Assembly: GCA_041666205.1 (NCBI GenBank)
Contig: JBAYHI010000001.1
Span: 90,894 to 154,893, forward strand
Length of the DNA stretch: 64,000 nucleotides
From: Patescibacteria group bacterium
GTDB taxonomy: Bacteria > Patescibacteriota > Patescibacteriia > UBA9934
Direction: 5' to 3'
Shown here one piece after another: positions 15,315 through 63,558 of the stretch. The notes beneath the pieces were generated by a model. The model was not told where the DNA came from and did no database searches. It was given only the letters and a program-made list of their open reading frames with translations. Numbering within the stretch: the first letter of the stretch is position 1; each line of letters starts with the position of its first letter. Made by a program: the position numbers and the translations under genes.

Positions 15315-15375
15315 CCCTTCTCGGGTTATTTTCAATATTCATGTGATGGCTTGCCATCCGTAGCCATGAAAAACT

Positions 15376-15447: not shown

Positions 15448-15485
15448 CGATGGCTTGCCAACCGTAGCTTCAGCGATAGCTGAAG
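15448..15485 (-). repeat. family-2 structured repeat, inverted copy, abutting tRNA-Gly
   Basis: Reverse complement reads CCAACCTTCGCTTCAGC-TATC-GCTGAAGCTACGGTTGG. The 21-mer GATGGCTTGCCA(T/A)CCGTAGC also recurs at 15343 and 15450. Confidence 0.55.
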
Positions 15486-19031: not shown

Positions 19032-19108
19032 TGGTGGGTGTGGATGGACTCGAACCATCGACCTCAGTCTTATCAGGACTGCGCTCTAACCACCTGAGCT
19101 ACACACCC
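19032..19108 (-). tRNA. tRNA-Ile (anticodon GAT)
   Basis: Reverse complement GGGTGTGTAGCTCAGGTGGTTAGAGCGCAGTC-CTGATAA-GACTG...GGTTCGAGTCC...CACACCC-A-CCA. Confidence 0.9.
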
Positions 19109-19376: not shown

Positions 19377-19426
19377 GATAAGAATGAATTCCCCGAGAGG
19401 GGATTTTTGATATAAAATATCTGCAT

Positions 19427-19897: not shown

Positions 19898-19999
19898 CAT
19901 GGAGTAAAAATTCTCCCCGAGAGGGGATTTTTTTGTTTATCTTGTCTCAAATAGGTTGATGCGATAGAATACGACCAATCTTATTCGTTATTATTTTTT

Positions 20000-20338
20000 A
20001 TGAAAAAGCCTCTTGTCATTGTTGGAGGACTCCTGCTCGCAGTCGGCCTCTTACTTGGGATCATGGGAACTGAACGGATGGTAAAATCTGGTGAGAGTTC
20101 TGATAGTGCCGCGTTTTACTATGTGATGTATGAAGATGCAATAAGCATCGAAGATTATGAAAGTGCTGATATGTACATGAATTGGGCGATTTCTGATTTT
20201 GATCTTTCCGATTCTCGCAAGGCAACGGCGATTGGTGAAGGGGTTACTAGTTTCGTATTATTGGCTGGTGGAGCAGTATTGCTCTTCTTGGGGCTTAAAG
20301 GAAAAAAGAATGGAAAGATGATGAAGCCAATGGTCTAG
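20000..20338 (+). CDS. small membrane protein (two predicted TM helices)
   Basis: Hydrophobic N- and C-terminal segments; followed by the terminator AACTTCC-tcgcaatgg-GGAAGTTTTTTT at 20349-20376. Confidence 0.45.
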   Translation: MKKPLVIVGGLLLAVGLLLGIMGTERMVKSGESSDSAAFYYVMYEDAISIEDYESADMYMNWAISDFDLSDSRKATAIGEGVTSFVLLAGGAVLLFLGLKGKKNGKMMKPMV

Positions 20339-20385
20339 AATTTTTAGAAAACTTCCTCGCAATGGGGAAGTTTTTTTATTGTCTA

Positions 20386-20430
20386 AAAACGCGAAGACTC
20401 CCGGCCAAGGAGTGGGGGAGTCTGAGGGGG
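20386..20430 (-). repeat. 45-bp hairpin/terminator repeat, copy 1 (3' of gene 20436-20840)
   Basis: Minus strand: CCCCTCAGACTCCCCCACTCCTTGGCCGGGAGTCTTCGCGTTTTT, i.e. stem GACTCCC...GGGAGTC plus a T-rich tail. A second copy at 20893-20937 differs by one base. Confidence 0.65.
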
Positions 20431-20435
20431 ACGTG

Positions 20436-20840
20436 CTAGTGGTCGAGTTCCGCCAACACGTTTGCCACGAGTTTGGCGAGCACCTGGCGCCGCAGGTCTG
20501 GGTATGAGTCGGCGATACTCACGAGGAGCCAGAGGGGCATGCCTTGGTGGTCGATTATTGCCCTGCAGACCTCGATCCTCAGATTTTTCGGTGTGAGGTT
20601 CCCGAAGAGGCGTTCGTTCACCTGGCCTCGATTGGCCCACCCTCTATTGAGGATCAGATTCATGGATCTTATCCCGAATCGGACGTCTCCGGCTCCACTT
20701 CGCATGATGAGCCACAGTTCATCAGCTGACGCGTCAGATCTACGTAGCAACGCATCGGCCATCTGTGGGGTACATCGGCCTTCTAGTACCCGGATCGTTA
20801 GCACGCTGGTTTCGAAATCGGCGAAGTTTTCTTCACCCAT
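20436..20840 (-). CDS. hypothetical protein, GC-rich island A, paralog 1 (about 134 aa)
   Basis: ATG at 20840 preceded by AAGGAGGAAT (SD). The codon usage is GC-rich and unlike the neighbours. The ORF-track 5' extension reads through the upstream repeat and is probably not translated. Confidence 0.5.
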   Translation of the reverse strand: MGEENFADFETSVLTIRVLEGRCTPQMADALLRRSDASADELWLIMRSGAGDVRFGIRSMNLILNRGWANRGQVNERLFGNLTPKNLRIEVCRAIIDHQGMPLWLLVSIADSYPDLRRQVLAKLVANVLAELDH

Positions 20841-20892
20841 TGTGAATTCCTCCTTGTTCAATTTTACAGATTGCCGTGGATAAAAACAACCC

Positions 20893-20937
20893 AAAAACGC
20901 GAAGACTCCCGGCCGAGGAGTGGGGGAGTCTGAGGGG
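20893..20937 (-). repeat. 45-bp hairpin/terminator repeat, copy 2 (3' of gene 20951-21355)
   Basis: Near-identical to 20386-20430, with a single A/G difference. Confidence 0.65.
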
Positions 20938-20950
20938 GGTTTGAGACCAT

Positions 20951-21355
20951 CTAGTGCGATGAAGCTTCCCATCGGAGCCTTGCCATGGTGCGGATGATGG
21001 TCGCCTCGGCTTCGTCGCGAAGCTCCGGAAATTCCTCGAAGATGTAGCCCAAGAGTCGTAACCCTGGGTCGAAGAGTTTGTCAGTTGGGCTTGCAGCCTT
21101 CGTGATGAGCCATCGTGCGACCGCGAGTCGCAAGGGGCGCACTCCATTCCATGCGTAGTTGTGATCGTAGAAAATACGCACGAAGAGCATCAAACACTCT
21201 GCTTCGTCGGCCCAGTTGTGGCGAATAAATTGTGCTTCCTTGAGGAGCTCGCCAAGCGCTTCGAGTCGCTTTTCAAGCGACGCCTGTTGGTCCCGAACAG
21301 TCTCGCGCAAACGATCTTCTTTATTATGGTCGTACAAGATGTGCCTCCGGGTCAA
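20951..21355 (-). CDS. hypothetical protein, GC-rich island A, paralog 2 (134 aa)
   Basis: By-eye alignment to 20436-20840 suggests distant paralogy: ADE(L/A)..L, NRGWANRG vs HNYAWNGV, YPDLRRQ vs FPELRDE near the C-terminus. Confidence 0.5.
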   Translation of the reverse strand: MTRRHILYDHNKEDRLRETVRDQQASLEKRLEALGELLKEAQFIRHNWADEAECLMLFVRIFYDHNYAWNGVRPLRLAVARWLITKAASPTDKLFDPGLRLLGYIFEEFPELRDEAEATIIRTMARLRWEASSH

Positions 21356-21383
21356 TTTAACCAGGGAATGTCTGGAAAATCAA

Positions 21384-21418
21384 CCCTCCTTTGCTCCGTA
21401 GAACGGAGCTTCGGAGGA
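21384..21418 (+). repeat. family-2 structured repeat copy between island A and the 16S terminator
   Basis: CCCTCCTTTGCTCCG-TAGAA-CGGAGCTTCGGAGGA. Confidence 0.55.
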
Positions 21419-21593
21419 TTATTTTTACTGAATGTCTTTTTGTAAAAATATAAATCTCCCTTTTGGGGAGTTTCTTATAACTCTAATCGACAATCTACAA
21501 TTTAGAACTATGTGATTACAACGTCTTATTTTCACAATTCCCGAAGGAATTATGAATCGACTTAATCATCTTGTAAAAAGATGAAGTTCCCTA

Positions 21594-23095
21594 GAAAGGA
21601 GGTAATCCATCCACAGCTTCCGCTACGGATGCCTTGTTACGACTTCGTCCCTATTGCTGGTTTTGCCTTCCGCCGCTCTACAGCGACGTTCGGGCACCAC
21701 CAACTCTCTTGACGTGACGGGCGGTGAGTACAAGACCTGAGAACGTATTCAAGGTGGCGTTATGATCCACCTTTACTAGCGATTCCAACTTCATGGAGTC
21801 GAGTTTCAGACTCCAATCCGAACTGAGATTGGTTTTGTGAGATTTGCTCCGCCTCGCGGCTTGGCTTCCCATTGTACCAACCATTGTACCATGCGTGTCG
21901 CCCTGGACGTAAGGGCCACGCTGATTTGACGTCATCCCCTCCTTCCTCCTTCTTGCGAAGGCAGTCTCCCGTGAAAATAATAACACAGGACAGGGGTTGC
22001 GCTCGTTACCCCACTTAAGGGTACACCTCACGGCACGAGCTGACGACAACCGTGCAGCACCTATCTAGCACCCTCGAAGGAGCCTTACTTTCATAAGGTT
22101 AGCAGCTAGTAGTTGAGCCCAGGTGAGGTTTCTCGTGTATCATCGAATTAAACCGCATGGTCCACCGCTTGTGCAGGTCCCCGTCTATTCCTTTGAGTTT
22201 TAACCTTGCGGTCGTACTTCCCAGGCGGAGTGCTTAACGCGTTAGCTTGTTTAAGCGGCACCAAGAGGGTCGATACTCTTGATACCTAGCACTCATCGTT
22301 TACGGCATGGACTACTGGGGTATCTAATCCCATTCGCTACCCATGCTTTCGTACAACAGTGTCAGGAACATTCTAGTTGGCTGCTTTCGCATTTGGTGTT
22401 CTACCTAATCTTAACGGATTTAACCCCTACACTAGGCATTCCGCCAACCTCTCTTGTCCTCGAGTCTTGCAGTATCACCCGCAGCCTCCAGGTTGAGCCT
22501 GAAGATTTAACGAATGACTTACAAAACCACCTACGTACTCTTTACGCCCAATAAATCCGGTCAACGCTCGGGGTCTCTGTATTACCGCTGCTGCTGGCAC
22601 AGAGTTAGCAACCCCTTTCTTCTAAGGTACCGTCATTAATTCGTCCCTTAGGACAGTCGTTTACGACCCGAAGGCCTTCATCCGACACGCGGCATCGCTC
22701 CGTCACACTTTCGTGCATTGCGGAATATTCTTGACTGCAGCCTCCCGTAGGAGTCTGGGCAGTATCTCAGTCCCAGTGAGCCGGGTCACGCTCTCACGCC
22801 CGGTATCCGTCATAGCCTTGGTGAGCCATTACCTCACCAACTAGCTGATAGAACATAGGCCCTTCCCGAACCGATAAATCTTTCAATGAGAATGACTTTC
22901 GTCCCCTCATCAGTATCGCGTATTAGCCCACGTTTCCATGGGTTATTCGCGAGTTCAGGGTAGGTTACCAATGCGTTACTCTCCCGTTTGCCACTAACAT
23001 CAGTGGAGCAAGCTCCACTAAAATTCGTTCGACTTGCATGCCTTAGACATGCCGCCAGCGTTCGACCTGAGCTAGGATCAAACTCTCATATATAG
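21594..23095 (-). rRNA. rrs: 16S ribosomal RNA
   Basis: The 5' end reads ...GAGAGTTTGATCCTAGCTCAG (reverse complement near 23067-23086), the 3' end ...GGATTACCTCCTTTCT (near 21595), and conserved internal blocks such as GTGCCAGCAGCCGCGGTAATAC are present. Confidence 0.9.
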
Positions 23096-23215
23096 TACTT
23101 TTGCAATCCCGAAGGATTGTTCAAAGCCTCTACTCAATAATAGACGTTGTAATCACACAATTTTAAATTGTTGTGGTTGTCGATTACAGTTGTGAAAGGC
23201 CGTATAACGAGCGGT

Positions 23216-23244
23216 ACTTTACCAGGAGCCTGAAAACCTGTCAA
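23216..23244 (-). promoter_or_regulatory. 16S rRNA promoter (TTGACA-17-TAAAGT)
   Basis: On the minus strand, TTGACA is the reverse complement of 23239-23244 and TAAAGT of 23216-23221, about 120 nt upstream of the 16S 5' end. The leader's UGUGAUUACAACGUCU can pair with the trailer at 21513-21528, a processing stem. Confidence 0.55.
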
Positions 23245-23285
23245 GGAAATATGGGTAAATCGTCAAAAAGAAAAACAGCACCGTT

Positions 23286-23954
23286 TTAGGTGCGTTTTTC
23301 TTGGGCATTTCGCCAGGCCTCAATTTCCTTGTGATTTCCCGATAAGAGCACAGGTGGGACATGTAAATCCTTCTTTTTTCGGCCGATTTTTAGCGTATAC
23401 GTTTCGGGCTTTGTGTACTGCGGATATTCGAGCACGCCGGCTTCTGTATGAGATTCTGCGTCGAGCGATTCTTTTGCTCCCAAGACGCCAGGAATTTGGC
23501 GCGCAATGGCGTCGCACATCACAAGGGCAGGGAGTTCACCACCGGTGAGAACGAAATCGCCAATGGAAAGCGCTTCATCTGCAATCGCATCCTCGACTCG
23601 CTGATCAATGCCTTCGTAGCGTCCGCAAATGAAGATAAGGTGACCATATTTTGCGAGTCGCACGGCGTCTTCTTGCGTGAATCGTTTTCCGCTCGCAGAC
23701 GTGATAATTACATGCGTTCCTTTTTTCTTGAATTTGCGTACGGCGTCGGCGATTGGTTGCACGGTCATAACCATACCCGGGCCTCCACCGTATGGGGTAT
23801 CGTCGACTTTGCCGTGTTTGTCTTTGGAAAATGCACGAATATCGTGCGCCTCAATGCGAATGAGTTTTTCTTTTTGCGCGCGACCCAAAATCGACGCCTC
23901 TGAATAAGGTGTGATTGTCTCTGGGAAGATTGTGAGGATGTCGTAGCGCTTCAT
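23286..23954 (-). CDS. trmD: tRNA (guanine37-N1)-methyltransferase
   Basis: MKRYDILTIFPE...GGGPGMVM...GRYEGIDQRV are TrmD hallmarks; followed on the minus strand by the terminator GCACCTAAAACGGTGCTGTTTTT. Confidence 0.9.
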   Translation of the reverse strand: MKRYDILTIFPETITPYSEASILGRAQKEKLIRIEAHDIRAFSKDKHGKVDDTPYGGGPGMVMTVQPIADAVRKFKKKGTHVIITSASGKRFTQEDAVRLAKYGHLIFICGRYEGIDQRVEDAIADEALSIGDFVLTGGELPALVMCDAIARQIPGVLGAKESLDAESHTEAGVLEYPQYTKPETYTLKIGRKKKDLHVPPVLLSGNHKEIEAWRNAQEKRT

Positions 23955-24021
23955 AATGTAGGCTATTTTTAGCATAAATTTTCGGTTTTGTAAAGCGATT
24001 TGGTATAATACTCGCAACAAT

Positions 24022-24234
24022 ATGCTAAAGAAATTCAAAAATCTCAAACATAATCACCAGCTCATTTTTAGTCTCATTATTATCTCGGGAGTAACCGGGG
24101 TTTGGCGGGGGATATGGGGACTGTTGGACGTCTTTTTCATTCCCGGTGATTTGACTCTAAGTTACTCGCTCTCACTCATTCTTGGCATTGTCATTATCAC
24201 AATCACGCACTATACGATTGATCGAATCGTCTAA
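24022..24234 (+). CDS. small hydrophobic protein (70 aa)
   Basis: An ORF with two predicted TM segments right after a TATAAT-like element; there is no homology-based support. Confidence 0.3.
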   Translation: MLKKFKNLKHNHQLIFSLIIISGVTGVWRGIWGLLDVFFIPGDLTLSYSLSLILGIVIITITHYTIDRIV

Positions 24235-24235
24235 A

Positions 24236-24273
24236 ATAAAAAAAATCACGGCCCCTTGCGGAGTCGTGATTTG
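24236..24273. repeat. bidirectional-terminator-like repeat, copy 1 (AAAAATCACGGCCCCTTGCGGAGTCGTGATTT)
   Basis: Stem ATCACG...CGTGAT flanked by an A-run and a T-run; a near-identical copy lies at 24626-24661. The perfect palindrome CCCCACGGCAGCTGCCGTGGGG at 24284-24305 lies between. Confidence 0.6.
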
Positions 24274-24324: not shown

Positions 24325-24534
24325 TTACCGAGGGATCTTCCGCAGATTGGCCGACATCGTCCAGCTGATCACCTCGACATGGTCGCTATCCCAGTGCACC
24401 GGAACACACCTGTATTCGGCTATTTCATCGTCCACATCATAGCCGGGATCAACTACGGTACCTCGCGAATCTCCACCGGAAGTCACTCTATCTCCGACCT
24501 CAAAACCGTAGTAGTTCCTGTAGTGGATGGGCAT
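24325..24534 (-). CDS. small hypothetical protein (about 69 aa) inside a repeat-flanked GC-rich cassette
   Basis: ATG at 24534 preceded by GAGGAGGAAGAC (SD); translates as MPIHYRNYYGFEVGDRVTSGGDSRGTVVDPGYDVDDEIAEYRCVPVHWDSDHVEVISWTMSANLRKIPR. Confidence 0.4.
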   Translation of the reverse strand: MPIHYRNYYGFEVGDRVTSGGDSRGTVVDPGYDVDDEIAEYRCVPVHWDSDHVEVISWTMSANLRKIPR

Positions 24535-24625
24535 GTCTTCCTCCTCACGATGCGCATTAGTTTTTAAGTACAGCACTTTATCATAATTGATGATTTTGTA
24601 TAGTGAAACATGTTTAACGCAAAAC

Positions 24626-24661
24626 AAAAATCACGGCCCCTCGCGGAGTCGTGATTTTTTT
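24626..24661. repeat. bidirectional-terminator-like repeat, copy 2
   Basis: AAAAATCACGGCCCCTCGCGGAGTCGTGATTTTTTT. Confidence 0.6.
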
Positions 24662-37651: not shown

Positions 37652-37739
37652 TTTCGTTTTCAAAAAAAAAACGACCCCTCCGGCCGAGACGTGGTGTGGC
37701 GGAGGGGCAGGGGGAGGGGCGCCCCGGGAGTGGGCGGAG

Positions 37740-38270
37740 CTACATGCCGGCGTTGCCCAGGGGGCCGAAGGGAATCGGATCGGTCGCGAAGGCTGGCGGG
37801 CGAAGCTTGAGCAGGGCGGAGCACAGTGATCGCTCTTCGGTGAGTACCTCGGTTCTTCTCTTCTCCATCGTCTGGATGGCGAGGTCGATGAGTGCCTGGA
37901 TCTTGTTGCCGAAGTACCACGAGGTTTCTCCGATCTTCATCACGAAGACGATCTCGTGGTTGTTGTCTCGCTCTGCGACGTAGATGAACTTTTCCTCGTC
38001 CCGTAGACCGCCACGGTAATACGTGACGATCTGTTCGGGCATCACAAGCCTCGCGATGACGGTGAATTTGAAGTAGGTCTTGTCCACGTCAAATTCAGTG
38101 GGGAACATCTCGCTGAGAGGCAGAGACACAGGTCCTCCAATATCCAGCAATTGCCGGAACGGTGGTGAACGGTAGGCGGAAATGGGGAATTGGTCAAGGT
38201 CTTGAGGTGCGTGAACAAAAACTCCCCATATTCGCACCGTCTTTTCAATTCTTGGAGAGAGCCAAGTCAT
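37740..38270 (-). CDS. hypothetical protein D1 (176 aa), GC-rich island D
   Basis: A long ORF with GC-rich codon usage, last gene of a co-oriented run; no recognisable motif. Confidence 0.45.
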   Translation of the reverse strand: MTWLSPRIEKTVRIWGVFVHAPQDLDQFPISAYRSPPFRQLLDIGGPVSLPLSEMFPTEFDVDKTYFKFTVIARLVMPEQIVTYYRGGLRDEEKFIYVAERDNNHEIVFVMKIGETSWYFGNKIQALIDLAIQTMEKRRTEVLTEERSLCSALLKLRPPAFATDPIPFGPLGNAGM

Positions 38271-38331
38271 GAATAAACGGCACGAATGTGGGGAGTTTGA
38301 TTTTGCAGGGAAGCGAGCGCTCGAAGAATGG

Positions 38332-38610
38332 TTAGTTCTCGAGCACTCGCCAGAAGATCGCGTCGACGATCTCGGTGACCGGACCGCCCTCGTATTCGGA
38401 GAGGTGGTCGATTTCCGAGAGAAGGCGGAATTCGATCTCCGCGCCGTTTTCCTCGATGAGGATTAGGCACGAGAGACTAATCACCTCGCGATCGTCGAGC
38501 AGATACCCTGCGCCGCAAGCGCAGGAATGCCGGTACTCGTTCCCGTACTGCTTGGGGAGCCGAAGCTCCCCGTGGCAAAACGGGCAAACGAACGGGGGCC
38601 ACTCGGGCAT
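38332..38610 (-). CDS. hypothetical small zinc-ribbon protein D2 (about 92 aa)
   Basis: ATG at 38610 preceded by GGAGGATCCC (SD); CPFCHGE...HSCACG gives a CxxC...CxC candidate zinc ribbon. Confidence 0.5.
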   Translation of the reverse strand: MPEWPPFVCPFCHGELRLPKQYGNEYRHSCACGAGYLLDDREVISLSCLILIEENGAEIEFRLLSEIDHLSEYEGGPVTEIVDAIFWRVLEN

Positions 38611-38752
38611 GGGATCCTCCGAATTTTTAACTCTCAAGACCTACGATTGCTCGCGGGTCTATTCGAGTCCCGGATGTTTAGTACATCCGGGGAGACGACC
38701 TCCAAAGTTGAAGGATTTTGCCACAGATCGCTGTGGCCCGGTTTCGGTGGGG

Positions 38753-39298
38753 CTAGAAGTCGTTGTCGCCGTCTTCCTCCTCGACCGTGTGGCGGTGGAT
38801 GACCACGACCTCGTCGGGATCGCATCCCTCGCCACACTCCACCGGGGTTTCTTCCTGCTCCTCAGTGAGCGGGAATTCCCTTTGGATGCGTTCGGAGTCG
38901 ATGCCAGCGGCCTCGGCGCGGTCTCGCGCGGAGGAGATCGCATGCCACGGGCCGGCGTCGATCTCGACCTCGAGTTGCATGCTGGAATTTTGGGGCTTGC
39001 ACCACACCAACCGTGCTTTCGACGATCCGCCCCCGTATTCGACATAGTAGTATCCCGGACCCTTCCACACGAATTCGATGGGGGCAGGGCCGTGCTGGGG
39101 GTCGAAGTTATCCTCGTCGGCCTCAGCTGCTTCGAACGCCGTCTCGACGGCGACGAGGATCGAGCACGGGTCCACCTCGGTGAGCATGAAGTGCTTGGGG
39201 GCGAGGCCCCCGAAGCGACCGGCCGCGGCCTTGAATGCCACAACCGCTTCAGTGAGCTGCTCGACGCCATAAACCACCCGCAGAATTTTCTGGAACAT
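38753..39298 (-). CDS. hypothetical acidic protein D3 (181 aa)
   Basis: ATG at 39298 preceded by AAGGAGAT (SD); the acidic C-terminus contains ECGEGCDPDE. The longer overlapping Ser/Arg-rich ORFs on this and the other strand look like GC-driven artifacts. Confidence 0.5.
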   Translation of the reverse strand: MFQKILRVVYGVEQLTEAVVAFKAAAGRFGGLAPKHFMLTEVDPCSILVAVETAFEAAEADEDNFDPQHGPAPIEFVWKGPGYYYVEYGGGSSKARLVWCKPQNSSMQLEVEIDAGPWHAISSARDRAEAAGIDSERIQREFPLTEEQEETPVECGEGCDPDEVVVIHRHTVEEEDGDNDF

Positions 39299-39397
39299 CT
39301 CGATCTCCTTCGAACTCCCATTTTTTTATCCGCTGGGATAGCGGGTTGCTGGATCTCTTGCCTTTGCTCGCTCCGACCCCTCTGGTCGGTTTACAGG

Positions 39398-39451
39398 CAT
39401 CGGCTTGAAAGTCCCACCGCAATCCTTGATTGAATCAAGGACTCTGGTGGG
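39398..39451 (-). promoter_or_regulatory. conserved intergenic element copy 1 (CATYGGCTTGAAAGTCCCAYC...TCTGGTGGG) containing the perfect 17-bp palindrome CCTTGATTGAATCAAGG
   Basis: It shares both ends with the copy at 39986-40042. The palindrome at 39424-39441 sits about 100 nt upstream of D3. Confidence 0.45.
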
Positions 39452-39492
39452 CGGGAAGACGATCGGTCTGCCTTCCCAAGAAGTTGTGCGAC

Positions 39493-39924
39493 TCAGTTGC
39501 AGTCGCTATCGTTCCAGTCGACGCGACCATCACAGTCGTCGTCGATTTGGTTACTGCAATACTCACTTTCTGGACCACCCGGGCGGGTGGTCGCATCGTT
39601 GTCGTTGCAGTCGTCGTCGTTGGCGACGTACCCGATCGGCTGCTCGCACGACTCGAAATCGTGTCGCTGGTCCCCGAAGTCGTCGTTGTCCAAATCGCGG
39701 AACCAGGTTTCTGCGTCGACCGCGTCGTTTTCGTCGATGTTGTCGTCGCAGTCGTTGTCGATTCCGTCGCAGTACTCGTCCGCGTCGGGGTAGACGTCGA
39801 CATCCTCGTCGTCGCAGTCGCCGTCGATCACTGCGTACCCGTCACCGTCGAAATCGGCATATTCCGGGGGCAGTTCCGTGCAAGCGGACAGAGCGAGGAA
39901 CAGGGCGATGATGTTACGGTACAT
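39493..39924 (-). CDS. secreted lipoprotein D4 with Asp/Cys-rich calcium-binding-type repeats (thrombospondin-type-3-like DxDxDGxxDxxD / DCDD motifs)
   Basis: Signal peptide with lipobox LSAC, then repeated DGDGYAVIDGDCDDEDVD, DGIDNDCDDNIDEND and NDDDCNDND blocks. Confidence 0.55.
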   Translation of the reverse strand: MYRNIIALFLALSACTELPPEYADFDGDGYAVIDGDCDDEDVDVYPDADEYCDGIDNDCDDNIDENDAVDAETWFRDLDNDDFGDQRHDFESCEQPIGYVANDDDCNDNDATTRPGGPESEYCSNQIDDDCDGRVDWNDSDCN

Positions 39925-39985
39925 GGCTTCTCCTGAAAGCGGATCTTTCGCTTCTGCTCATTCCGACCGATATGGCCGAAGAAAG

Positions 39986-40042
39986 CATTGGCTTGAAAGT
40001 CCCATCACATGACTCGAACATGCGTTCAAGTAATCTGGTGGG
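39986..40042 (-). promoter_or_regulatory. conserved intergenic element copy 2, with the imperfect palindrome TTGAACGCATGTTCGA
   Basis: Same flanks as copy 1 (GGCTTGAAAGTCCCA and TCTGGTGGG), about 60 nt upstream of D4. Confidence 0.45.
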
Positions 40043-40121
40043 TCCCCGACAGTCGTAGTGAGTCGGGAACACGTTCGCCATTTCACGTAGCCTTGAAACG
40101 GTGATAAAGAGGCTTGAGCTT

Positions 40122-40409
40122 CTAGAGCTCGATCGCGTAGGTCGAGAACGCGTTCCGCATCCCGAGGTTGAAGTCCTCCGGGACCGGGACGCGGGGCAGG
40201 TTGGTCTGGGCCTCGATGACCCGCACCTTCTCCTCACCCCAGACGTGGATGTAGAGCTCGGGCGTCTGGGTCTCGTAGAGCCGCTCGACGCGGGCGCGTT
40301 CTGCTGCCTCGTCGGCCGTTGGCCTGCGGTACACGCTGTGACACGGCTCATTGCCATTGAAGAATTGGATGACGTAGATGGTCTTGGGGGTCTGGGTCGT
40401 CTCTTCCAC
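40122..40409 (-). CDS. hypothetical protein D5 (95 aa, GTG start)
   Basis: GTG at 40409 preceded by AGGAGAGACC (SD); first gene after the upstream promoter/RNA unit. Confidence 0.4.
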   Translation of the reverse strand: MEETTQTPKTIYVIQFFNGNEPCHSVYRRPTADEAAERARVERLYETQTPELYIHVWGEEKVRVIEAQTNLPRVPVPEDFNLGMRNAFSTYAIEL

Positions 40410-40561
40410 GGTCTCTCCTGGCCGTCCAATGCATGGATCGGCTGAAGGGTCTTCCGACTACGAATCAAGAGCGGAGCGCTCAAGACCCAGTCGGAGAACT
40501 GAACGCTCCATTTTGCGAGCGTCGTCGATGCGATGAATGAATCATCGGTTCGCGACGCTTA

Positions 40562-40777
40562 CAAAAAACAGAGCTTTTCCTTATTCTTTGAAAGAAAGAG
40601 GAAAAACTCTGTTTTTCGAGTATCAAACTCGAAATGACCAACTGGGAATTGCTTCCCTTATTGATCTGCCTTGTCACCCCAGGCTCGGGCTCTCTCTTAG
40701 GACTAATGGATTCTACCGGACGTTTCGTGTTTCTTTTAAGCAGTGAATCAACCGTAACTTTCTCTCATCTCAACCAC
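40562..40777 (-). ncRNA. candidate ~216-nt RNA or regulated leader upstream of island D
   Basis: Starts about 7 nt after the TATAGT of the promoter at 40784-40812 and ends in a 15-bp-stem intrinsic terminator (AACAGAGUUUUUCCU...AGGAAAAGCUCUGUU plus U6, plus-strand 40561-40625). It contains the GNRA-capped hairpin GGGAAGCAAUUCCC and no ORF with an SD. Confidence 0.4.
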
Positions 40778-40783
40778 GCATAT

Positions 40784-40812
40784 ACTATACCATAATTTGG
40801 AGCTTTTGTCAA
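40784..40812 (-). promoter_or_regulatory. consensus-like sigma70 promoter (TTGACA-17-TATAGT) between tRNA-Glu and island D
   Basis: On the minus strand, TTGACA is the reverse complement of 40807-40812 and TATAGT of 40784-40789; AT-rich UP-like sequence lies upstream. Confidence 0.5.
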
Positions 40813-40975
40813 CCGTAGAATTTGGCTAAAAGCCTTATTTTAAGCCAAATTTTTAGGTTTTTGGCTAACTTTTGAGGGCGAAAAAGGGCCGGGAATCCGA
40901 ACCCCTATCAATCCGGGTTCGATTCCAGATACGAACAATCCCTCATAGCTCCAGCTTTGCTGGAGCGACGAGGGA

Positions 40976-41050
40976 TGGTGACCCTACCGGGAATCGAACC
41001 CGGATTGCAGGCTTGAAAAGCCCGCGTCCTAACCGTTAGACGATAGGGCC
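40976..41050 (-). tRNA. tRNA-Glu (anticodon TTC)
   Basis: Reverse complement GGCCCTATCGTCTAACGGTTAGGACGCGGGC-TTTTCAA-GCCTG...CCGGGTTCGATTCCCGG-TAGGGTC-A-CCA. Confidence 0.8.
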
Positions 41051-41158
41051 GAAATGCGGGAGTAGAATATGATAATTTTTGGTTTCTGTCAATAAATCCT
41101 TCATAAACGGCAAAACCCTCCTTCGTCCCGTCAAACGGGACTCCGGAGGGCGAGAGGG

Positions 41159-42583
41159 CTAGCGCGAAGTGACGAGGTCATTCCGGCGGTAGACGCGGAA
41201 CGCGTCGTTGTCGAACGACTCCATGGTGTAGTGATCCTGGAGCCACTCGGCGAACTCCGGCCAGGCCTTGAACTTATCGTATCCGCGAGGATCGCTCGCT
41301 TTCGCGGTTACGAAGTAGTCCGGTGGACGCAGTTGCACTTCCGAAAAGAATCGGTCGCGCATGCCACGTCTTGTTTTGGAATCCGATCCCATGAAGAGAC
41401 ACAGGTCGTACTGCATCCCTGTCGCAGGAAGTCTTCCTGTGCGGAACAGCGCGTTTGGCACGTCATCGACGAATGCCAACGGCTGGATCCGCGCGTCGCG
41501 TGGGAGTTTCTCGATCACTCCCATGAGAGACGGCGTTGCGGGATACGCTTCCTCAAGGGCGCGCACATGCGCTTCGTCGCTTGGCACGAAGTACATGACG
41601 GGCCAGGTGAGCGCAAGCCCCACCGCGATCATTCTCACCCCAATCCATTCGAGGCGTTGCGCTGTTTCCATGAGCGCGAGCGATCCGAATGCGACCAGAG
41701 GAATGAAGTGGTAGGGGAACCCTTTATTTTGCGCCACCACGTGGACGATTCCGAGAAGTGCCATGGACCACATCACGTTATGGCGTGATGGCGACCGAAT
41801 GAGCGCGAGCGTACTGACGAGCAGCACGAGCGCCATGAAGGTGAACCGCATCCACATGGGGGTGGACGGCATGAAGCCGTAGGAATGATCCCCGGCGTAG
41901 AACGGCGTCAGCTCAGTCATGGTCCACACGAAGTCGGGCATCACCTGGATTTTTTCAATCCATGCGATGGTGACAACCCAGGGGATGGCAATTCCTGGCA
42001 GCACCCACCACCGTTTTGCTTGTTTGGTCGTGAGCGCAAAGATGGCAAGCGGAACTGCAAACAGGATGGCGTTCACCTTCACGGTTGACGCGTATCCAAT
42101 CAGCAGCCCCGCCATTACCATGCTCGTTTTTCCACGTTTGGCGAAGATGAGCGTAGCGGCGCCAAGGAAGCAGCAGACCACCACGAGCTCGCGCTGCATG
42201 GTGCCGTTGGCTCCAAGAAACATGAGGTGGAACCCGACAAAGCACAGTGCGGGCGCCAGTCGGAAGTTATTTCCGGCCCCAAGTCTCCACAGAAGCCAGG
42301 CGCAGAGCGCAAGCACGAGTTGATCCGCGATGCGGAAACACTCGTCCGCCAGACTCACGGTGAGAAGTGCCGCGAAATAGAGGATGGTCCCGGGCTGGTT
42401 GAACTCGATGAGGACCTTGTAGGGCGTCATGCCCTGCATGATCCACCAAGTGGAACAGCGGAGTTTCTGCGTATCCGGTCCAATACTCATGTGAATGCTT
42501 GCGATGGAGATGGCCCCGAGGAGCCCAATCACCAACGCTGCAAGAATCGTCCACCAATTCAGAAACCGCTTATTGGAATTCAC
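41159..42583 (-). CDS. polytopic membrane glycosyltransferase (GT-C fold, ArnT/PMT-like family 39 type)
   Basis: 474 aa with about 11 TM segments, an early loop carrying an acidic pair (LADE) and a large C-terminal soluble domain. GC-rich codon usage. This is a family-level guess only. Confidence 0.5.
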   Translation of the reverse strand: MNSNKRFLNWWTILAALVIGLLGAISIASIHMSIGPDTQKLRCSTWWIMQGMTPYKVLIEFNQPGTILYFAALLTVSLADECFRIADQLVLALCAWLLWRLGAGNNFRLAPALCFVGFHLMFLGANGTMQRELVVVCCFLGAATLIFAKRGKTSMVMAGLLIGYASTVKVNAILFAVPLAIFALTTKQAKRWWVLPGIAIPWVVTIAWIEKIQVMPDFVWTMTELTPFYAGDHSYGFMPSTPMWMRFTFMALVLLVSTLALIRSPSRHNVMWSMALLGIVHVVAQNKGFPYHFIPLVAFGSLALMETAQRLEWIGVRMIAVGLALTWPVMYFVPSDEAHVRALEEAYPATPSLMGVIEKLPRDARIQPLAFVDDVPNALFRTGRLPATGMQYDLCLFMGSDSKTRRGMRDRFFSEVQLRPPDYFVTAKASDPRGYDKFKAWPEFAEWLQDHYTMESFDNDAFRVYRRNDLVTSR

Positions 42584-42662
42584 GGGAAACCTCGATGTAA
42601 AGGTGCGATGAACTAACGATCCTAGCGCAAAAAATTGAAAAAGTCAATCATTTGCCTAAAAC

Positions 42663-63296: not shown

Positions 63297-63371
63297 ATGC
63301 ACCGATAGCTCAGCGGTAGAGCAGGTGGCTCTTAACCACTTGGTCGGGGGTTCAAATCCCTCTCGGTGCAC
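63297..63371 (+). tRNA. tRNA-Lys (anticodon CTT)
   Basis: GCACCGATAGCTCAGCGGTAGAGCAGGTGG-CTCTTAA-CCACT...GGTTCAAATCCCTC-TCGGTGC-A-CCA; the promoter TTGACG-17-CATAAT is upstream, and the terminator CACTCAGG-ttgac-CCTGGGTGTTTTT follows. Confidence 0.85.
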
Positions 63372-63538
63372 CACAAAAACACTCAGGTTGACCCTGGGTG
63401 TTTTTGTATGAATCAAAGCAAACCAACTGCTTGGTTTGCGTAGGGATTTTGAACGCCGGAGCCATATTCTGCCAGCAGGCAGAATGGCGAGGCGGTGGCT
63501 AGGTCAAAGCAAGTGACGACGAGCTTTGAGCCGAAGCC

Positions 63539-63558
63539 AAATCCCTCTCGGTGCACCA
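63539..63558 (+). repeat. direct repeat of the last 20 nt of tRNA-Lys (AAATCCCTCTCGGTGCACCA)
   Basis: Identical to 63352-63371; it lies 168 bp downstream and is followed by a family-2 repeat (63557-63596) and a second copy of the tRNA-Lys terminator type (about 63620-63660). Confidence 0.6.

What the first reader, a model, noticed from the sequence alone, without database searches (positions are those of the whole stretch)
20386..21420. Tandem distant paralogs, each followed by the same 45-bp hairpin repeat, inserted between the tRNA cluster and the 16S rRNA gene
Two ~134-aa minus-strand genes with GC-rich codon usage share blocks by eye (ADE..L, W(A)N(R)G, Y/FP(D/E)LR) and are therefore likely paralogs. 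Each is followed by a near-identical 45-bp element (a single A/G difference) forming GACTCCC...GGGAGTC plus a T-tract, i.e. each gene carries its own copy of a terminator cassette. The pair sits where the ITS/23S would normally follow the 16S. The arrangement suggests modular duplication of a gene-plus-terminator unit of foreign origin.
Basis: seen in the sequence. Interest (0 to 1): 0.55.

Follow-up and report, generated by a model that had tools for sequence, protein, structure and literature searches.

The report
Two orphan genes sharing a terminator hairpin
Next to the 16S rRNA gene of an uncultured Patescibacteria bacterium sit two small genes with no detectable relatives, each closed by a copy of the same 46-base hairpin; the hairpin repeat is real, but the genes are not demonstrably related, and the locus looks like ordinary piecemeal gene gain.

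Summary
The 46-nt direct repeat is real: 20385-20430 and 20893-20938, 45/46 identical, only two copies in the window, none in shuffles. Each copy lies 5 or 12 nt after the stop codon of a minus-strand ORF. These are g1 (20436-20840, 134 aa) and g2 (20951-21337, 128 aa). Both have Shine-Dalgarno sites and coding-type GC by codon position.

The claim that they are paralogs fails. BLASTP finds nothing. The only similarity is a 41-column C-terminal stretch (hhalign P about 0.01, 20 bits), weaker than chance hits in 1.36 Mb of unrelated DNA.

Both proteins are ORFans: no family-library, structure or database relatives outside this organism. The same locus appears in four assemblies of one Patescibacteria population.

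The hairpin resembles an intrinsic terminator but is atypical, because 6 nt separate the stem from the T5 run. R-g1-R is not unique. Two clear further pairs of near-identical hairpins, plus one partly similar pair, bracket single genes in this window. At one of them the closest relative has a single hairpin and no inserted genes.

Best reading: separately transcribed, probably foreign, moron-like ORFan units, with the terminator hairpin copied during gene insertion. This resembles the PeSL cassettes of T4-type phages, but mobility is not shown. Interest is low to moderate.

The parts
20385..20430 (-). Hairpin repeat copy R1. It starts 5 nt after the g1 stop codon. Minus strand: CCCCCTCAGACTCCCCCACTCCTTGGCCGGGAGTCTTCGCGTTTTT.
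   Evidence: repeat; fold, -16.6 kcal/mol, z -2.27.
20436..20840 (-). g1: a 134-aa ORFan, predicted all-alpha with 8 helices. ATG at 20840, TAG stop at 20436-20438.
   Evidence: ORF, codon-position GC; no real homologues; AF2, pLDDT 68.5; no fold match.
20849..20855 (-). Shine-Dalgarno AAGGAGG, 8 nt upstream of the g1 ATG.
   Evidence: Read from the sequence.
20861..20889 (-). Weak promoter-like site for g1: TTGTTT, 17 nt, TAAAAT. It lies in the 52-nt spacer between R2 and g1. Inferred only.
   Evidence: Read from the sequence. Below the threshold of the scan.
20893..20938 (-). Hairpin repeat copy R2. It starts 12 nt after the g2 stop codon. It differs from R1 by one base (G at 20915 versus A at 20407), at the apical closing pair.
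20951..21337 (-). g2: a 128-aa ORFan (TTG start at 21337; an alternative TTG at 21355 gives 134 aa). Predicted all-alpha with 5 helices, including a long N-terminal helix.
   Evidence: gene callers give 128 aa; AF2, pLDDT 68, pTM 0.40; no fold match.
21344..21348 (-). Shine-Dalgarno GGAGG, 6 nt upstream of the g2 TTG.
   Evidence: Read from the sequence.
21384..21419 (.). Strong GC-rich hairpin between the 16S trailer and g2, with T-rich runs on both sides. Probably a bidirectional insulator or terminator.
   Evidence: -39.4 kcal/mol for 125 nt, z -4.75, 0 of 200 shuffles.
21456..21470 (-). Terminator-like hairpin CTCCCCAAAAGGGAG plus a T-rich tail, just after the 16S processing stem.
21595..23093 (-). 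16S rRNA gene (context). It is flanked by a 30-nt leader/trailer processing stem (21497-21526 and 23142-23171). No 23S is in the window.
   Evidence: 1438 bits; I3, 90% complementary.
20000..20338 (+). 112-aa two-helix membrane protein gene, convergent with g1. Its bidirectional terminator (20346-20376) abuts R1 (context).

Best explanation
What it is: a compositionally atypical block of about 1 kb (roughly 20385-21420) in the variable interval downstream of an unlinked 16S rRNA gene of a Patescibacteria (CPR) chromosome.

What it carries: two separate monocistronic units. Each has its own Shine-Dalgarno site, a small all-alpha ORFan protein (g2 128 aa, g1 134 aa) and, 5-12 nt after the stop codon, a copy of one 46-nt GC-rich stem-loop.

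Shown:
- The repeat, the ORFs and their coding-type composition.
- The absence of relatives in the libraries and databases searched.
- The presence of the locus in all four assemblies found.
- The lack of significant similarity between g1 and g2.

Inferred:
- The stem-loop acts on minus-strand transcripts as an intrinsic terminator or 3'-end stabiliser.
- The genes were gained horizontally from a GC-richer source.
- The two hairpin copies are much younger than any relationship between the genes. R-g1-R therefore arose when g1 was added at, or together with, an existing hairpin. This could be recombination at the hairpin, such as integration of a gene-plus-hairpin circle or copying of the target hairpin. 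Alternatively both copies came from a repeated intergenic element of the donor.
- The same 'hairpin-gene-hairpin' layout recurs in this window, so it appears to be a general by-product of how this genome adds small genes.
- The function of the two proteins is unknown. A weak, non-significant structural hint points to a short alpha-helical repeat for g1.
For: - Repeat and its significance.
- Hairpin fold and position after the stop codons.
- Coding signature and SD sites.
- ORFan status:
  - Pfam, NCBIfam, PADLOC and PHROGs give nothing.
  - The 5.8-billion-protein search returns only self.
  - The full HMMER scan of 1.84 billion representatives with g1 gives only repeat-inflated hits to beta-propeller and other repeat proteins.
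  - PDB sequences give nothing.
  - Foldseek against PDB and BFVD gives nothing below E 0.3.
  - tblastn against phages and plasmids gives nothing.
- Same locus in a Logan contig, a JGI contig, the 156-kb contig held by NCBI/JGI and a 288-kb ENA contig, with one SNP found among the three sequences aligned.
- Atypical composition.
- Recurrence of hairpin-bracketed genes:
  - TCCCCGAGAGGGGATTTTT at 19390 and 19914 around the Nudix gene.
  - A 32-35-nt hairpin at 24238 and 24623 around a 69-aa GC-rich ORF with a GAGGAGG SD site.
  - A 20-nt repeat (19/20) opening two otherwise different hairpins, at 39397 and 39985, around a MopE-motif gene.
  - Background: about 0.65 local repeats of any kind expected.
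- Empty site: in the closest relative L005 (TrmD 70% identical), the KH-domain gene and trmD are adjacent with one hairpin between them.
- Nudix homologues sit in unrelated contexts elsewhere, one beside a Rep gene.
Against: - The hairpin is an atypical terminator. CGCG interrupts the U tract, the consensus scan missed it, and its stability is unremarkable for its composition.
- No transcript data are available.
- No donor and no third copy of the repeat were found anywhere, so a repeated element in a donor is conjecture.
- No variant lacking g1 and no empty site for this particular locus was found. The contig of the closest relative ends inside the 16S gene.
- GC3 of g1 and g2 is only about 1.5-2 SD above the window mean, and g2 codon usage correlates moderately with host genes (r 0.56). 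Foreign origin is therefore likely but not proven.
- A weak C-terminal resemblance between g1 and g2 (P about 0.01) leaves very old paralogy possible.
- Similar local hairpin or promoter repeats occur at lower density in other genomes, so the pattern may have no special mechanism.
Confidence: 0.55

Rival explanations
1. An ancestral gene-plus-terminator unit duplicated in tandem. The two proteins then diverged beyond recognition, while the hairpin stayed nearly identical through gene conversion or strong selection.
For: - The two genes share strand, size (128 and 134 aa), composition (GC 0.55 and 0.56) and all-alpha prediction.
- There is a marginal C-terminal alignment: 41 columns, 34% identity, hhalign P 0.0095, blastp E 0.007 without composition correction. 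The local Smith-Waterman shuffle test gives p 0.013.
Against: - BLASTP gives no alignment at E <= 100, and hhalign probability is 4%.
- The 20-bit score is below chance hits of 22-27 bits in 1.36 Mb.
- Shuffle nulls are lenient for amphipathic helices.
- The predicted helix layouts differ, 8 versus 5 helices.
- There is no nucleotide similarity outside the repeat.
- 45/46 identity including loop bases is hard to square with saturated divergence of the genes.
- The other hairpin-bracketed genes in the window (Nudix after a tRNA; a 69-aa ORF after a KH-domain gene) cannot be paralog pairs.
Confidence: 0.15
2. The 46-nt elements are site-specific or homology-driven recombination handles of a cassette system. 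Candidates are integron attC / CALIN-like sites or PeSL-like elements. In this reading g1 is a mobile cassette that can excise as a circle.
For: - The R-g1-R layout has a cassette-sized unit of 508 bp, an ORFan cargo and atypical GC.
- The hairpin has two unpaired bases.
- Two clear further hairpin-bracketed genes, plus one looser case, lie in the window, and one has an empty site in a relative.
- PeSL-bracketed ORFans and mini-circles are documented in T4-type phages (PMC2839356, PMC4122927).
Against: - There are no attC core sites (RYYYAAC ... GTTRRRY) on either strand, and the element is shorter than known attC sites (sequence).
- No integrase, transposase or other recombinase appeared among the 36 window ORFs scanned against Pfam.
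- There are only two copies.
- The repeat itself contains no promoter.
- All four assemblies show the same arrangement, and no deletion variant was found.
- Each bracketed gene has a different hairpin, so there is no common site for a dedicated enzyme.
Confidence: 0.1
3. The ORFs are not functional genes. The block is decaying foreign DNA or non-coding sequence, and the repeat is a remnant of a REP/MITE-like element.
For: - There are no homologues at all.
- The single SNP seen is non-synonymous.
- NCBI's annotation calls much shorter products, 75 and 119 aa.
- A 136-aa antisense ORF shows that long ORFs arise easily in this GC-rich stretch.
- AF2 confidence is only moderate.
Against: - Both ORFs are intact in every assembly, with correctly spaced strong SD sites and the GC1 > GC2 < GC3 pattern of real genes. 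The antisense ORF lacks that pattern.
- A hairpin lies directly after each stop codon.
- Rfam gives no RNA family match, even at E <= 10.
Confidence: 0.12
4. g2 and g1 form a two-gene functional module, such as toxin-antitoxin, toxin-immunity or a small defence system.
For: They are adjacent, on the same strand, small, foreign-looking genes.
Against: - PADLOC, Pfam, NCBIfam and PHROGs give no hits.
- A full hairpin and a 52-nt spacer with its own SD site separate them, so they are not arranged as an operon.
- No toxin-like domain lies nearby.
Confidence: 0.05

Closest known systems
PeSL (promoter-early stem-loop) cassettes in hyperplastic regions of T4-type phages (Arbiol et al. 2010, PMC2839356; Comeau et al. 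2014, PMC4122927)
   Same: Small ORFan genes are bracketed by near-identical short regulatory stem-loop repeats. The repeats are far more similar than the genes they flank. The layout predicts gain or loss by recombination between the repeats.
   Different: - PeSLs are composite: a strong sigma-70 promoter plus a terminator inside the repeat. Here only the stem-loop is repeated.
- PeSLs occur in many copies per phage genome. Here there are two copies, in a bacterial chromosome.
- Mini-circles were shown experimentally for PeSLs. Nothing of that kind is shown here.
Phage 'morons' (independent transcription units added between genes; reviewed in PMC3594210)
   Same: Each is an autonomous unit of promoter-like site, SD, ORF and terminator-like hairpin. 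Its base composition differs from its neighbours, and it is inserted between unrelated genes.
   Different: There is no prophage context. No phage genes were found nearby, and tblastn of g1 and g2 against phage genomes gave no match. The promoters are weak and only inferred.
Integron gene cassettes / CALINs (clusters of attC sites lacking an integrase; from established knowledge of integrons)
   Same: Short, mostly ORFan, same-strand genes are each followed by an imperfect palindromic repeat with unpaired bases. The unit is cassette-sized, about 0.5 kb.
   Different: There are no R''/R' core sites. The element is 46 nt, against roughly 57-141 nt for attC. No integrase was found, and the other bracketed genes in the window use unrelated hairpins.
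Unlinked rRNA genes (16S separated from 23S; known to be widespread in bacteria, from general knowledge)
   Same: The 16S gene has its own processing stem and terminators and is followed by protein-coding genes rather than ITS-23S. The trmD-16S adjacency and a non-rRNA downstream region are also seen in relative L010.
   Different: This explains the location only. It does not explain the genes or the repeat.

Membership tests
   - BLASTP: no alignment at E <= 100.
- hhalign: probability 4%, P 0.0095, 41 columns.
- Smith-Waterman shuffles: p 0.013-0.21.
- The score is below chance hits in a 1.36-Mb tblastn background.
   Single-sequence AF2 models have low to moderate confidence (pLDDT 68; pTM 0.56 and 0.40). 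They show 8 versus 5 helices. No tool was available for model-to-model superposition.
Rho-independent (intrinsic) terminator | GC-rich stem-loop just downstream of a stop codon, on the coding strand | tested here: met
   A stem of 7 + 3 bp with a CC bulge lies 5 and 12 nt after the TAG stops.
Rho-independent (intrinsic) terminator | Uninterrupted U tract directly after the stem | tested here: inconclusive
   The tail is UUCGCGUUUUU, so the T5 run starts 6 nt after the stem. The consensus scan did not call it. Stability z-scores are -2.3 and -0.35.
Rho-independent (intrinsic) terminator | Transcript 3' ends map to the element | not testable with these tools
   No RNA data are available.
Integron attC site / CALIN | R'' (RYYYAAC) and R' (GTTRRRY) core sites flanking an imperfect palindrome | tested here: not met
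   Neither strand of the 46-nt element or its immediate flanks contains the paired AAC...GTT core sites (sequence). Rfam gave no match at E <= 10.
Integron attC site / CALIN | Typical attC length (about 57-141 nt) and an array of at least 2 sites with same-strand cassettes | tested here: not met
   The repeat is 46 nt and the palindrome 27 nt. Two sites do flank one same-strand ORF.
Integron attC site / CALIN | Integron integrase nearby (for a complete integron) | tested here: not met
   No tyrosine recombinase appeared among the 36 window ORFs scanned with Pfam. Not every ORF of the window was scanned.
PeSL cassettes (T4-type phages) | The repeat unit contains both a sigma-70 promoter and a terminator stem-loop | tested here: not met
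   Only the stem-loop is repeated. The sequences after the two copies are unrelated, and only a weak promoter-like site (TTGTTT-17-TAAAAT) follows R2.
PeSL cassettes (T4-type phages) | Repeats bracket ORFan genes in variable regions | tested here: met
   R-g1-R with an ORFan cargo. The interval downstream of the 16S gene has different content in relative L010, and the Nudix homologues of relatives lie in unrelated contexts.
PeSL cassettes (T4-type phages) | Recombination between repeats gives indels or mini-circles | not testable with these tools
   All four assemblies have the same arrangement.
REP / MITE-like dispersed repeat | Many copies dispersed through the genome | tested here: inconclusive
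   There are only 2 copies in 64 kb. None were found in viral contigs or GTDB genomes, and only 2 chance-like hairpins in JGI metagenomes. The rest of this genome could not be scanned.
Known defence / toxin-antitoxin systems | Match to a known component family | tested here: not met
   PADLOC, Pfam and NCBIfam give no hit at E <= 1 apart from noise.

The most novel reading that the evidence does not exclude
The near-identical hairpins are not just terminators. They would be recombination handles of a PeSL-like cassette-shuffling process operating in a cellular (Patescibacteria) chromosome. Small foreign ORFan genes would enter and leave as gene-plus-hairpin circles by recombination at terminator hairpins. 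That would explain why at least three genes in this 64-kb window are each bracketed by their own duplicated hairpin.
Probability: 0.12. Interest if true: 0.55.

Novelty: new member of a known kind. Interest (0 to 1): 0.25.

Why it matters
On its own the locus matters little: two hypothetical proteins, already annotated as such in a public MAG, with a copied terminator-like hairpin.

The modest value lies in the recurring layout. Different small genes in one reduced CPR genome are each flanked by a duplicated terminator hairpin, and one case has an empty site in a relative. If hairpin duplication is a regular footprint of gene gain in these genomes, it would give a simple sequence marker for recent insertions. 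It would also hint at how ORFan genes enter highly reduced, possibly naturally transformable genomes. That idea is testable with existing metagenome reads.

Tried and rejected
- **Homology searches for g1 and g2.** Pfam, NCBIfam, PADLOC and PHROGs gave nothing. The 5.8-billion-protein word-indexed search returned only self. PDB sequences gave nothing, and tblastn against phages and plasmids gave nothing.
- **Full HMMER scan with g1.** It gave 9 non-self hits at E < 1e-3. All are long repeat proteins in which one weak match of about 30 bits is summed over 4-8 repeats. P0003 has 8 near-identical copies of the matching stretch; five of the six hits scanned carry SBBP beta-propeller repeats; g1 is predicted all-alpha. 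Rejected as spurious.
- **Search for the 46-nt element elsewhere.** Viral contigs gave 0 twice. GTDB genomes gave 0. A loose stem pattern in JGI metagenomes gave 2 unrelated hairpins.
- **rrs flank in relatives.** The closest relative's contig (L005) ends inside the 16S gene. Nudix homologues proved not to be syntenic. Exact-protein look-ups found no variant lacking g1 or g2.
- **Other readings considered and dropped:**
  - CRISPR: only two repeats, and the 462-nt interval between them is a gene.
  - DGR template/variable repeats: the repeats lie outside the ORFs and there is no reverse transcriptase.
  - Stop-codon read-through fusing the repeat to the ORFs: the two repeats are in different frames relative to their stop codons.
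  - Degenerate 23S or another structured RNA: Rfam gave nothing at E <= 10.
  - Assembly chimera: four independent assemblies agree.
- **Possible relationship between the 46-nt hairpin and the 24238/24623 hairpin.** They share TCA(C)GACTCC and GGCCG(G/T)GA. The match is too short to assess and was not pursued.
Full report
**1. What is in the sequence**

The window averages 48% GC. It carries ordinary housekeeping genes: YebC, RuvC, rpsP, a KH-domain gene, trmD, SMC, ClpP, TsaD and PilB.

Exact-sequence look-ups place the locus in an uncultured Patescibacteria group bacterium. The NCBI proteins are MFA6522073.1 and MFA6522074.1, locus tags WCT24_00570 and WCT24_00575.

A 16S rRNA gene lies on the minus strand at 21595-23093. 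A 30-nt leader/trailer stem brackets it (21497-21526 and 23142-23171, 90% complementary). A terminator-like hairpin at 21456-21470 follows, then a very stable hairpin at about 21384-21419 (z -4.75). The window has no 23S.

A tRNA-Ile(GAT) on the same strand lies 2.5 kb further on, at 19032-19108. It is separated from the 16S gene by plus-strand tRNA-Pro, tRNA-Phe, a Nudix gene and a 112-aa membrane-protein gene. The finding lies between that membrane-protein gene and the 16S gene.

**2. The observation**

The repeat is real. It is 46 nt, at 20385-20430 and 20893-20938, 45/46 identical, with 508 nt spacing. A 35-nt core with up to three mismatches occurs only at these two places in 64 kb and never in 100 shuffles.

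On the minus strand each copy reads CCCCCTCAGACTCCCCCACTCCT(T/C)GGCCGGGAGTCTTCGCGTTTTT. It folds into a 7-bp stem plus a 3-bp apical stem with a CC bulge (-16.6 and -17.6 kcal/mol). The single difference removes the apical A-U pair in the second copy.

The copies begin 5 nt after the g1 stop and 12 nt after the g2 stop.

Two caveats apply to the word 'terminator':
- The T5 run starts 6 nt after the stem (UUCGCGUUUUU), so the consensus scan did not list it.
- The fold is not much more stable than shuffles of the same composition (z -2.3 and -0.35).

**3. The two ORFs**

- g1 runs from the ATG at 20840 to the TAG at 20436-20438 (134 aa). AAGGAGG lies 8 nt upstream.
- g2 most likely starts at the TTG at 21337 (128 aa, as two gene callers chose). 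GGAGG lies 6 nt upstream. The TTG at 21355 would give 134 aa.
- Both show the composition pattern of real genes: GC1/GC2/GC3 of 0.61/0.41/0.65 and 0.61/0.39/0.64. A 136-aa antisense ORF does not show it.
- They are GC-richer (55-56%) than their immediate neighbours (40-43%) and than the window.
- Their GC3 is 1.5-2 SD above the mean of 50 window ORFs. A few other genes, mainly at 37.7-42.6 kb, are as GC-rich or more so.
- The locus is essentially identical in a Logan contig, a JGI contig, the 156-kb contig held by NCBI/JGI and a 288-kb ENA contig. One E-to-D substitution was found in g2 among the three sequences aligned. It is not an assembly artefact, but all four assemblies represent one population.

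**4. Are the genes paralogs?**

This could not be shown.
- BLASTP reports no alignment even at E <= 100.
- Smith-Waterman scores against 2000 shuffles give p = 0.013 and 0.038 for local alignment and 0.05-0.21 for global.
- hhalign aligns 41 columns (g1 85-125, g2 67-115, 34% identity) with P = 0.0095 and probability 4%. BLASTP without composition correction gives 20 bits.
- In a tblastn search of 1.36 Mb (window plus all fetched loci), g1 does not find g2 at E <= 10. Unrelated sequences score 22-27 bits. The resemblance therefore lies within background.
- There is no nucleotide similarity outside the repeat.
- The predicted secondary structures differ: eight short helices in g1, against a long N-terminal helix plus four more in g2.

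The duplication model also has a logical problem. Proteins diverged to this degree imply saturated divergence, yet the non-coding hairpin, loop included, differs at 1 of 46 positions.

**5. What the proteins are**

Nothing identifies them.
- Four profile libraries gave nothing.
- The 5.8-billion-protein search returned only the proteins themselves.
- PDB sequence searches and tblastn against phage and plasmid collections gave nothing.
- The exhaustive HMMER scan of 1.84 billion representatives with g1 returned nine non-self hits. All are long repeat proteins in which a weak match to g1 residues about 4-60 is summed over 4-8 repeat units. P0003 carries eight near-identical copies of the matching stretch, and five of the six hits scanned against Pfam are SBBP beta-propeller proteins. 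I regard these as artefacts of repeat summation.
- Single-sequence AlphaFold models are all-alpha and of moderate confidence. They match no solved or viral predicted structure. The best hit is E 0.36, to a phage 'leucine rich repeat variant' protein.

Both are ORFans by every search run here. Only g1 could be put through the exhaustive HMMER scan.

**6. The repeat elsewhere**

No copy was found in IMG/VR contigs or in one genome per GTDB species. A loose stem-only pattern in JGI metagenome contigs gave two unrelated hairpins. Rfam has no match in the region even at E <= 10. I could not scan the rest of this genome.

**7. Context that changes the reading**

A scan for local direct repeats shows that hairpin-gene-hairpin is not special to g1.

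- **Nudix gene.** TCCCCGAGAGGGGATTTTT occurs at 19390 (after tRNA-Phe) and again at 19914 (after the Nudix gene), 100% identical.
- **69-aa ORF (24325-24534, minus).** A 32-35-nt bidirectional terminator occurs at 24238-24272 and 24623-24657 (94%). It brackets a 69-aa ORF with 54% GC, no family match and a GAGGAGG SD site, between the KH-domain gene and trmD.
- **MopE-motif gene.** A 20-nt repeat (19/20 identical) at 39397 and 39985 opens two hairpins that otherwise differ. The pair brackets a GC-rich secreted protein carrying the MopE metal-binding motif.
- **Background.** Only about 0.65 local repeats of 15 nt or more, of any kind, are expected per shuffled window.
- **Empty site.** For the KH/trmD case there is an empty site. 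In the closest relative found (L005, TrmD 70% identical), the rpsP, KH-domain and trmD genes are contiguous with a single hairpin between KH and trmD. That hairpin has the same AACAAAAA...TTTTTTGTT frame as the window copy.
- **Nudix mobility.** Nudix homologues of 50-65% identity lie in unrelated contexts, one beside a rolling-circle Rep gene.
- **Other relatives.** L005 has its own 60-72% GC ORFs between trmD and the 16S gene. In L010 the 16S gene is followed by an ORF, tRNA-Val and tRNA-Ile, then protein genes, and no 23S.

The neighbourhood of this unlinked 16S gene is thus a variable region in the lineage. In this window, terminator-hairpin duplication goes with extra genes, and at the KH/trmD site the comparison with L005 shows that those genes are an insertion.

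A cruder scan of 1.3 Mb of other loci finds comparable local hairpin or promoter repeats in some genomes, but at lower density. The phenomenon is not unique to this organism.

**8. Best explanation**

The block holds two independent, moron-like transcription units. They were probably acquired from a GC-richer source and encode unrelated, or at most extremely distantly related, ORFan proteins.

The shared 46-nt stem-loop most likely serves as their terminator or 3'-end stabiliser.

Its near-identity means either that it was copied when g1 was added next to g2-R, or that both copies came from a repeated intergenic element of the donor. In the first case the route would be recombination at the hairpin, as proposed for PeSL-bracketed ORFans of T4-type phages (PMC2839356, PMC4122927).

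The anatomy, the ORFan status, the lack of paralogy and the recurrence of the layout are shown. Terminator function, foreign origin and the insertion mechanism are inferred.

I put 0.55 on this overall reading. I put about 0.1 on the stronger claim that the hairpins are active recombination handles.

**9. Comparison with known systems**

- **PeSL cassettes and phage morons** (PMC3594210) are the closest in how they work. The locus fails PeSL membership: there is no promoter in the repeat, only two copies, and a cellular rather than phage genome. It also lacks a prophage context.
- **Integron cassette array or CALIN.** It fails: no R''/R' core sites, too short, and no integrase among the 36 ORFs scanned.
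- **Other systems.** It matches no defence or toxin-antitoxin family.
- **Location.** The position simply reflects an unlinked 16S gene, a known arrangement.

**10. Verdict**

The feature is real but modest. The repeat is confirmed. The paralog / modular-duplication interpretation is not supported. The genes are lineage-restricted hypothetical proteins.

The only point of wider interest is the recurring hairpin-bracket footprint of gene gain in this CPR genome. Existing reads and whole-genome scans could test it.

Interest 0.25; new member of a known kind.

Noticed in passing
window 19390-19408 and 19914-19932: An identical 19-nt terminator hairpin (TCCCCGAGAGGGGATTTTT) occurs after tRNA-Phe and again after the Nudix gene, so it brackets that gene. 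Nudix homologues in relatives lie in unrelated contexts.
   Followed up: partly
window 24238-24272 and 24623-24657 (with ORF 24325-24534, minus): A 32-35-nt bidirectional terminator is duplicated (94%) around a 69-aa GC-rich ORF with no family match and a GAGGAGG SD site, inside the rpsP / KH-domain gene / trmD cluster. A 70-aa membrane ORF (24022-24234, +; weak Pfam 'Fuseless' hit) lies next to it. Relative L005 has the KH-domain gene and trmD adjacent with a single hairpin (L005 9946-9981).
   Followed up: yes
window 37700-42600, with a repeat at 39397-39416 / 39985-40004: An island of GC3-rich genes (GC3 0.64-0.73) with almost no Pfam matches. One Asp/Cys-rich secreted protein with a MopE metal-binding motif (39493-39924, minus) is bracketed by partly similar hairpins.
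   Followed up: partly
window 63353-63373 and 63538-63558: The last 21 nt of tRNA-Lys(CTT) are repeated exactly 185 nt downstream, and a diverged copy of the terminator that follows the tRNA recurs at about 63648. This looks like an att-type remnant of an integration at the tRNA.
   Followed up: no
window 15345-15364 and 15449-15468: A 20-nt hairpin-containing repeat (GATGGCTTGCCATCCGTAGC, 19/20) is duplicated 104 nt apart, next to tRNA-Gly(TCC).
   Followed up: no
window 21384-21419: An unusually stable GC-rich hairpin (z -4.75) lies between the 16S trailer and g2, with T-rich runs on both strands. It may be a bidirectional insulator. A promoter-like site (TTTACA-17-AATAAT, 21446-21418) abuts it.
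   Followed up: partly
window 21595-24047; L005 9977-14057; L010 2663-7164: The trmD-to-16S order is shared by the window, L005 and L010, although the gap is about 0.2 kb in the window and about 1.9 kb in L005. In the window and L010 the 16S gene is not followed by a 23S. L010's 16S gene carries a group I intron and is followed by a group II intron fragment.
   Followed up: partly
L005 10722-12194 and 6750-8822: The closest relative (about 52% GC) has its own 60-72% GC patches: two family-unknown ORFs between trmD and the 16S gene, and a 690-aa membrane protein gene upstream of rpsP.
   Followed up: no
L088 852-2161: A Nudix homologue (63% identical) lies directly after a rolling-circle Rep gene (PF23343) on a 3.6-kb contig. 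This suggests the Nudix gene travels on a small replicon or phage.
   Followed up: no
L067 1665-3470: A contig labelled Saccharibacteria has four or more copies of a 42-61-nt intergenic element containing a promoter-like TTGACT...TAGAGT, spaced 0.7-1.0 kb apart. This is another case of regulatory repeats shared by neighbouring genes.
   Followed up: no
window 20436-20840 and 20951-21337: Public annotations disagree on the starts. g1 is called as 75, 134 or 178 aa and g2 as 119 or 128 aa in different sources.
   Followed up: partly
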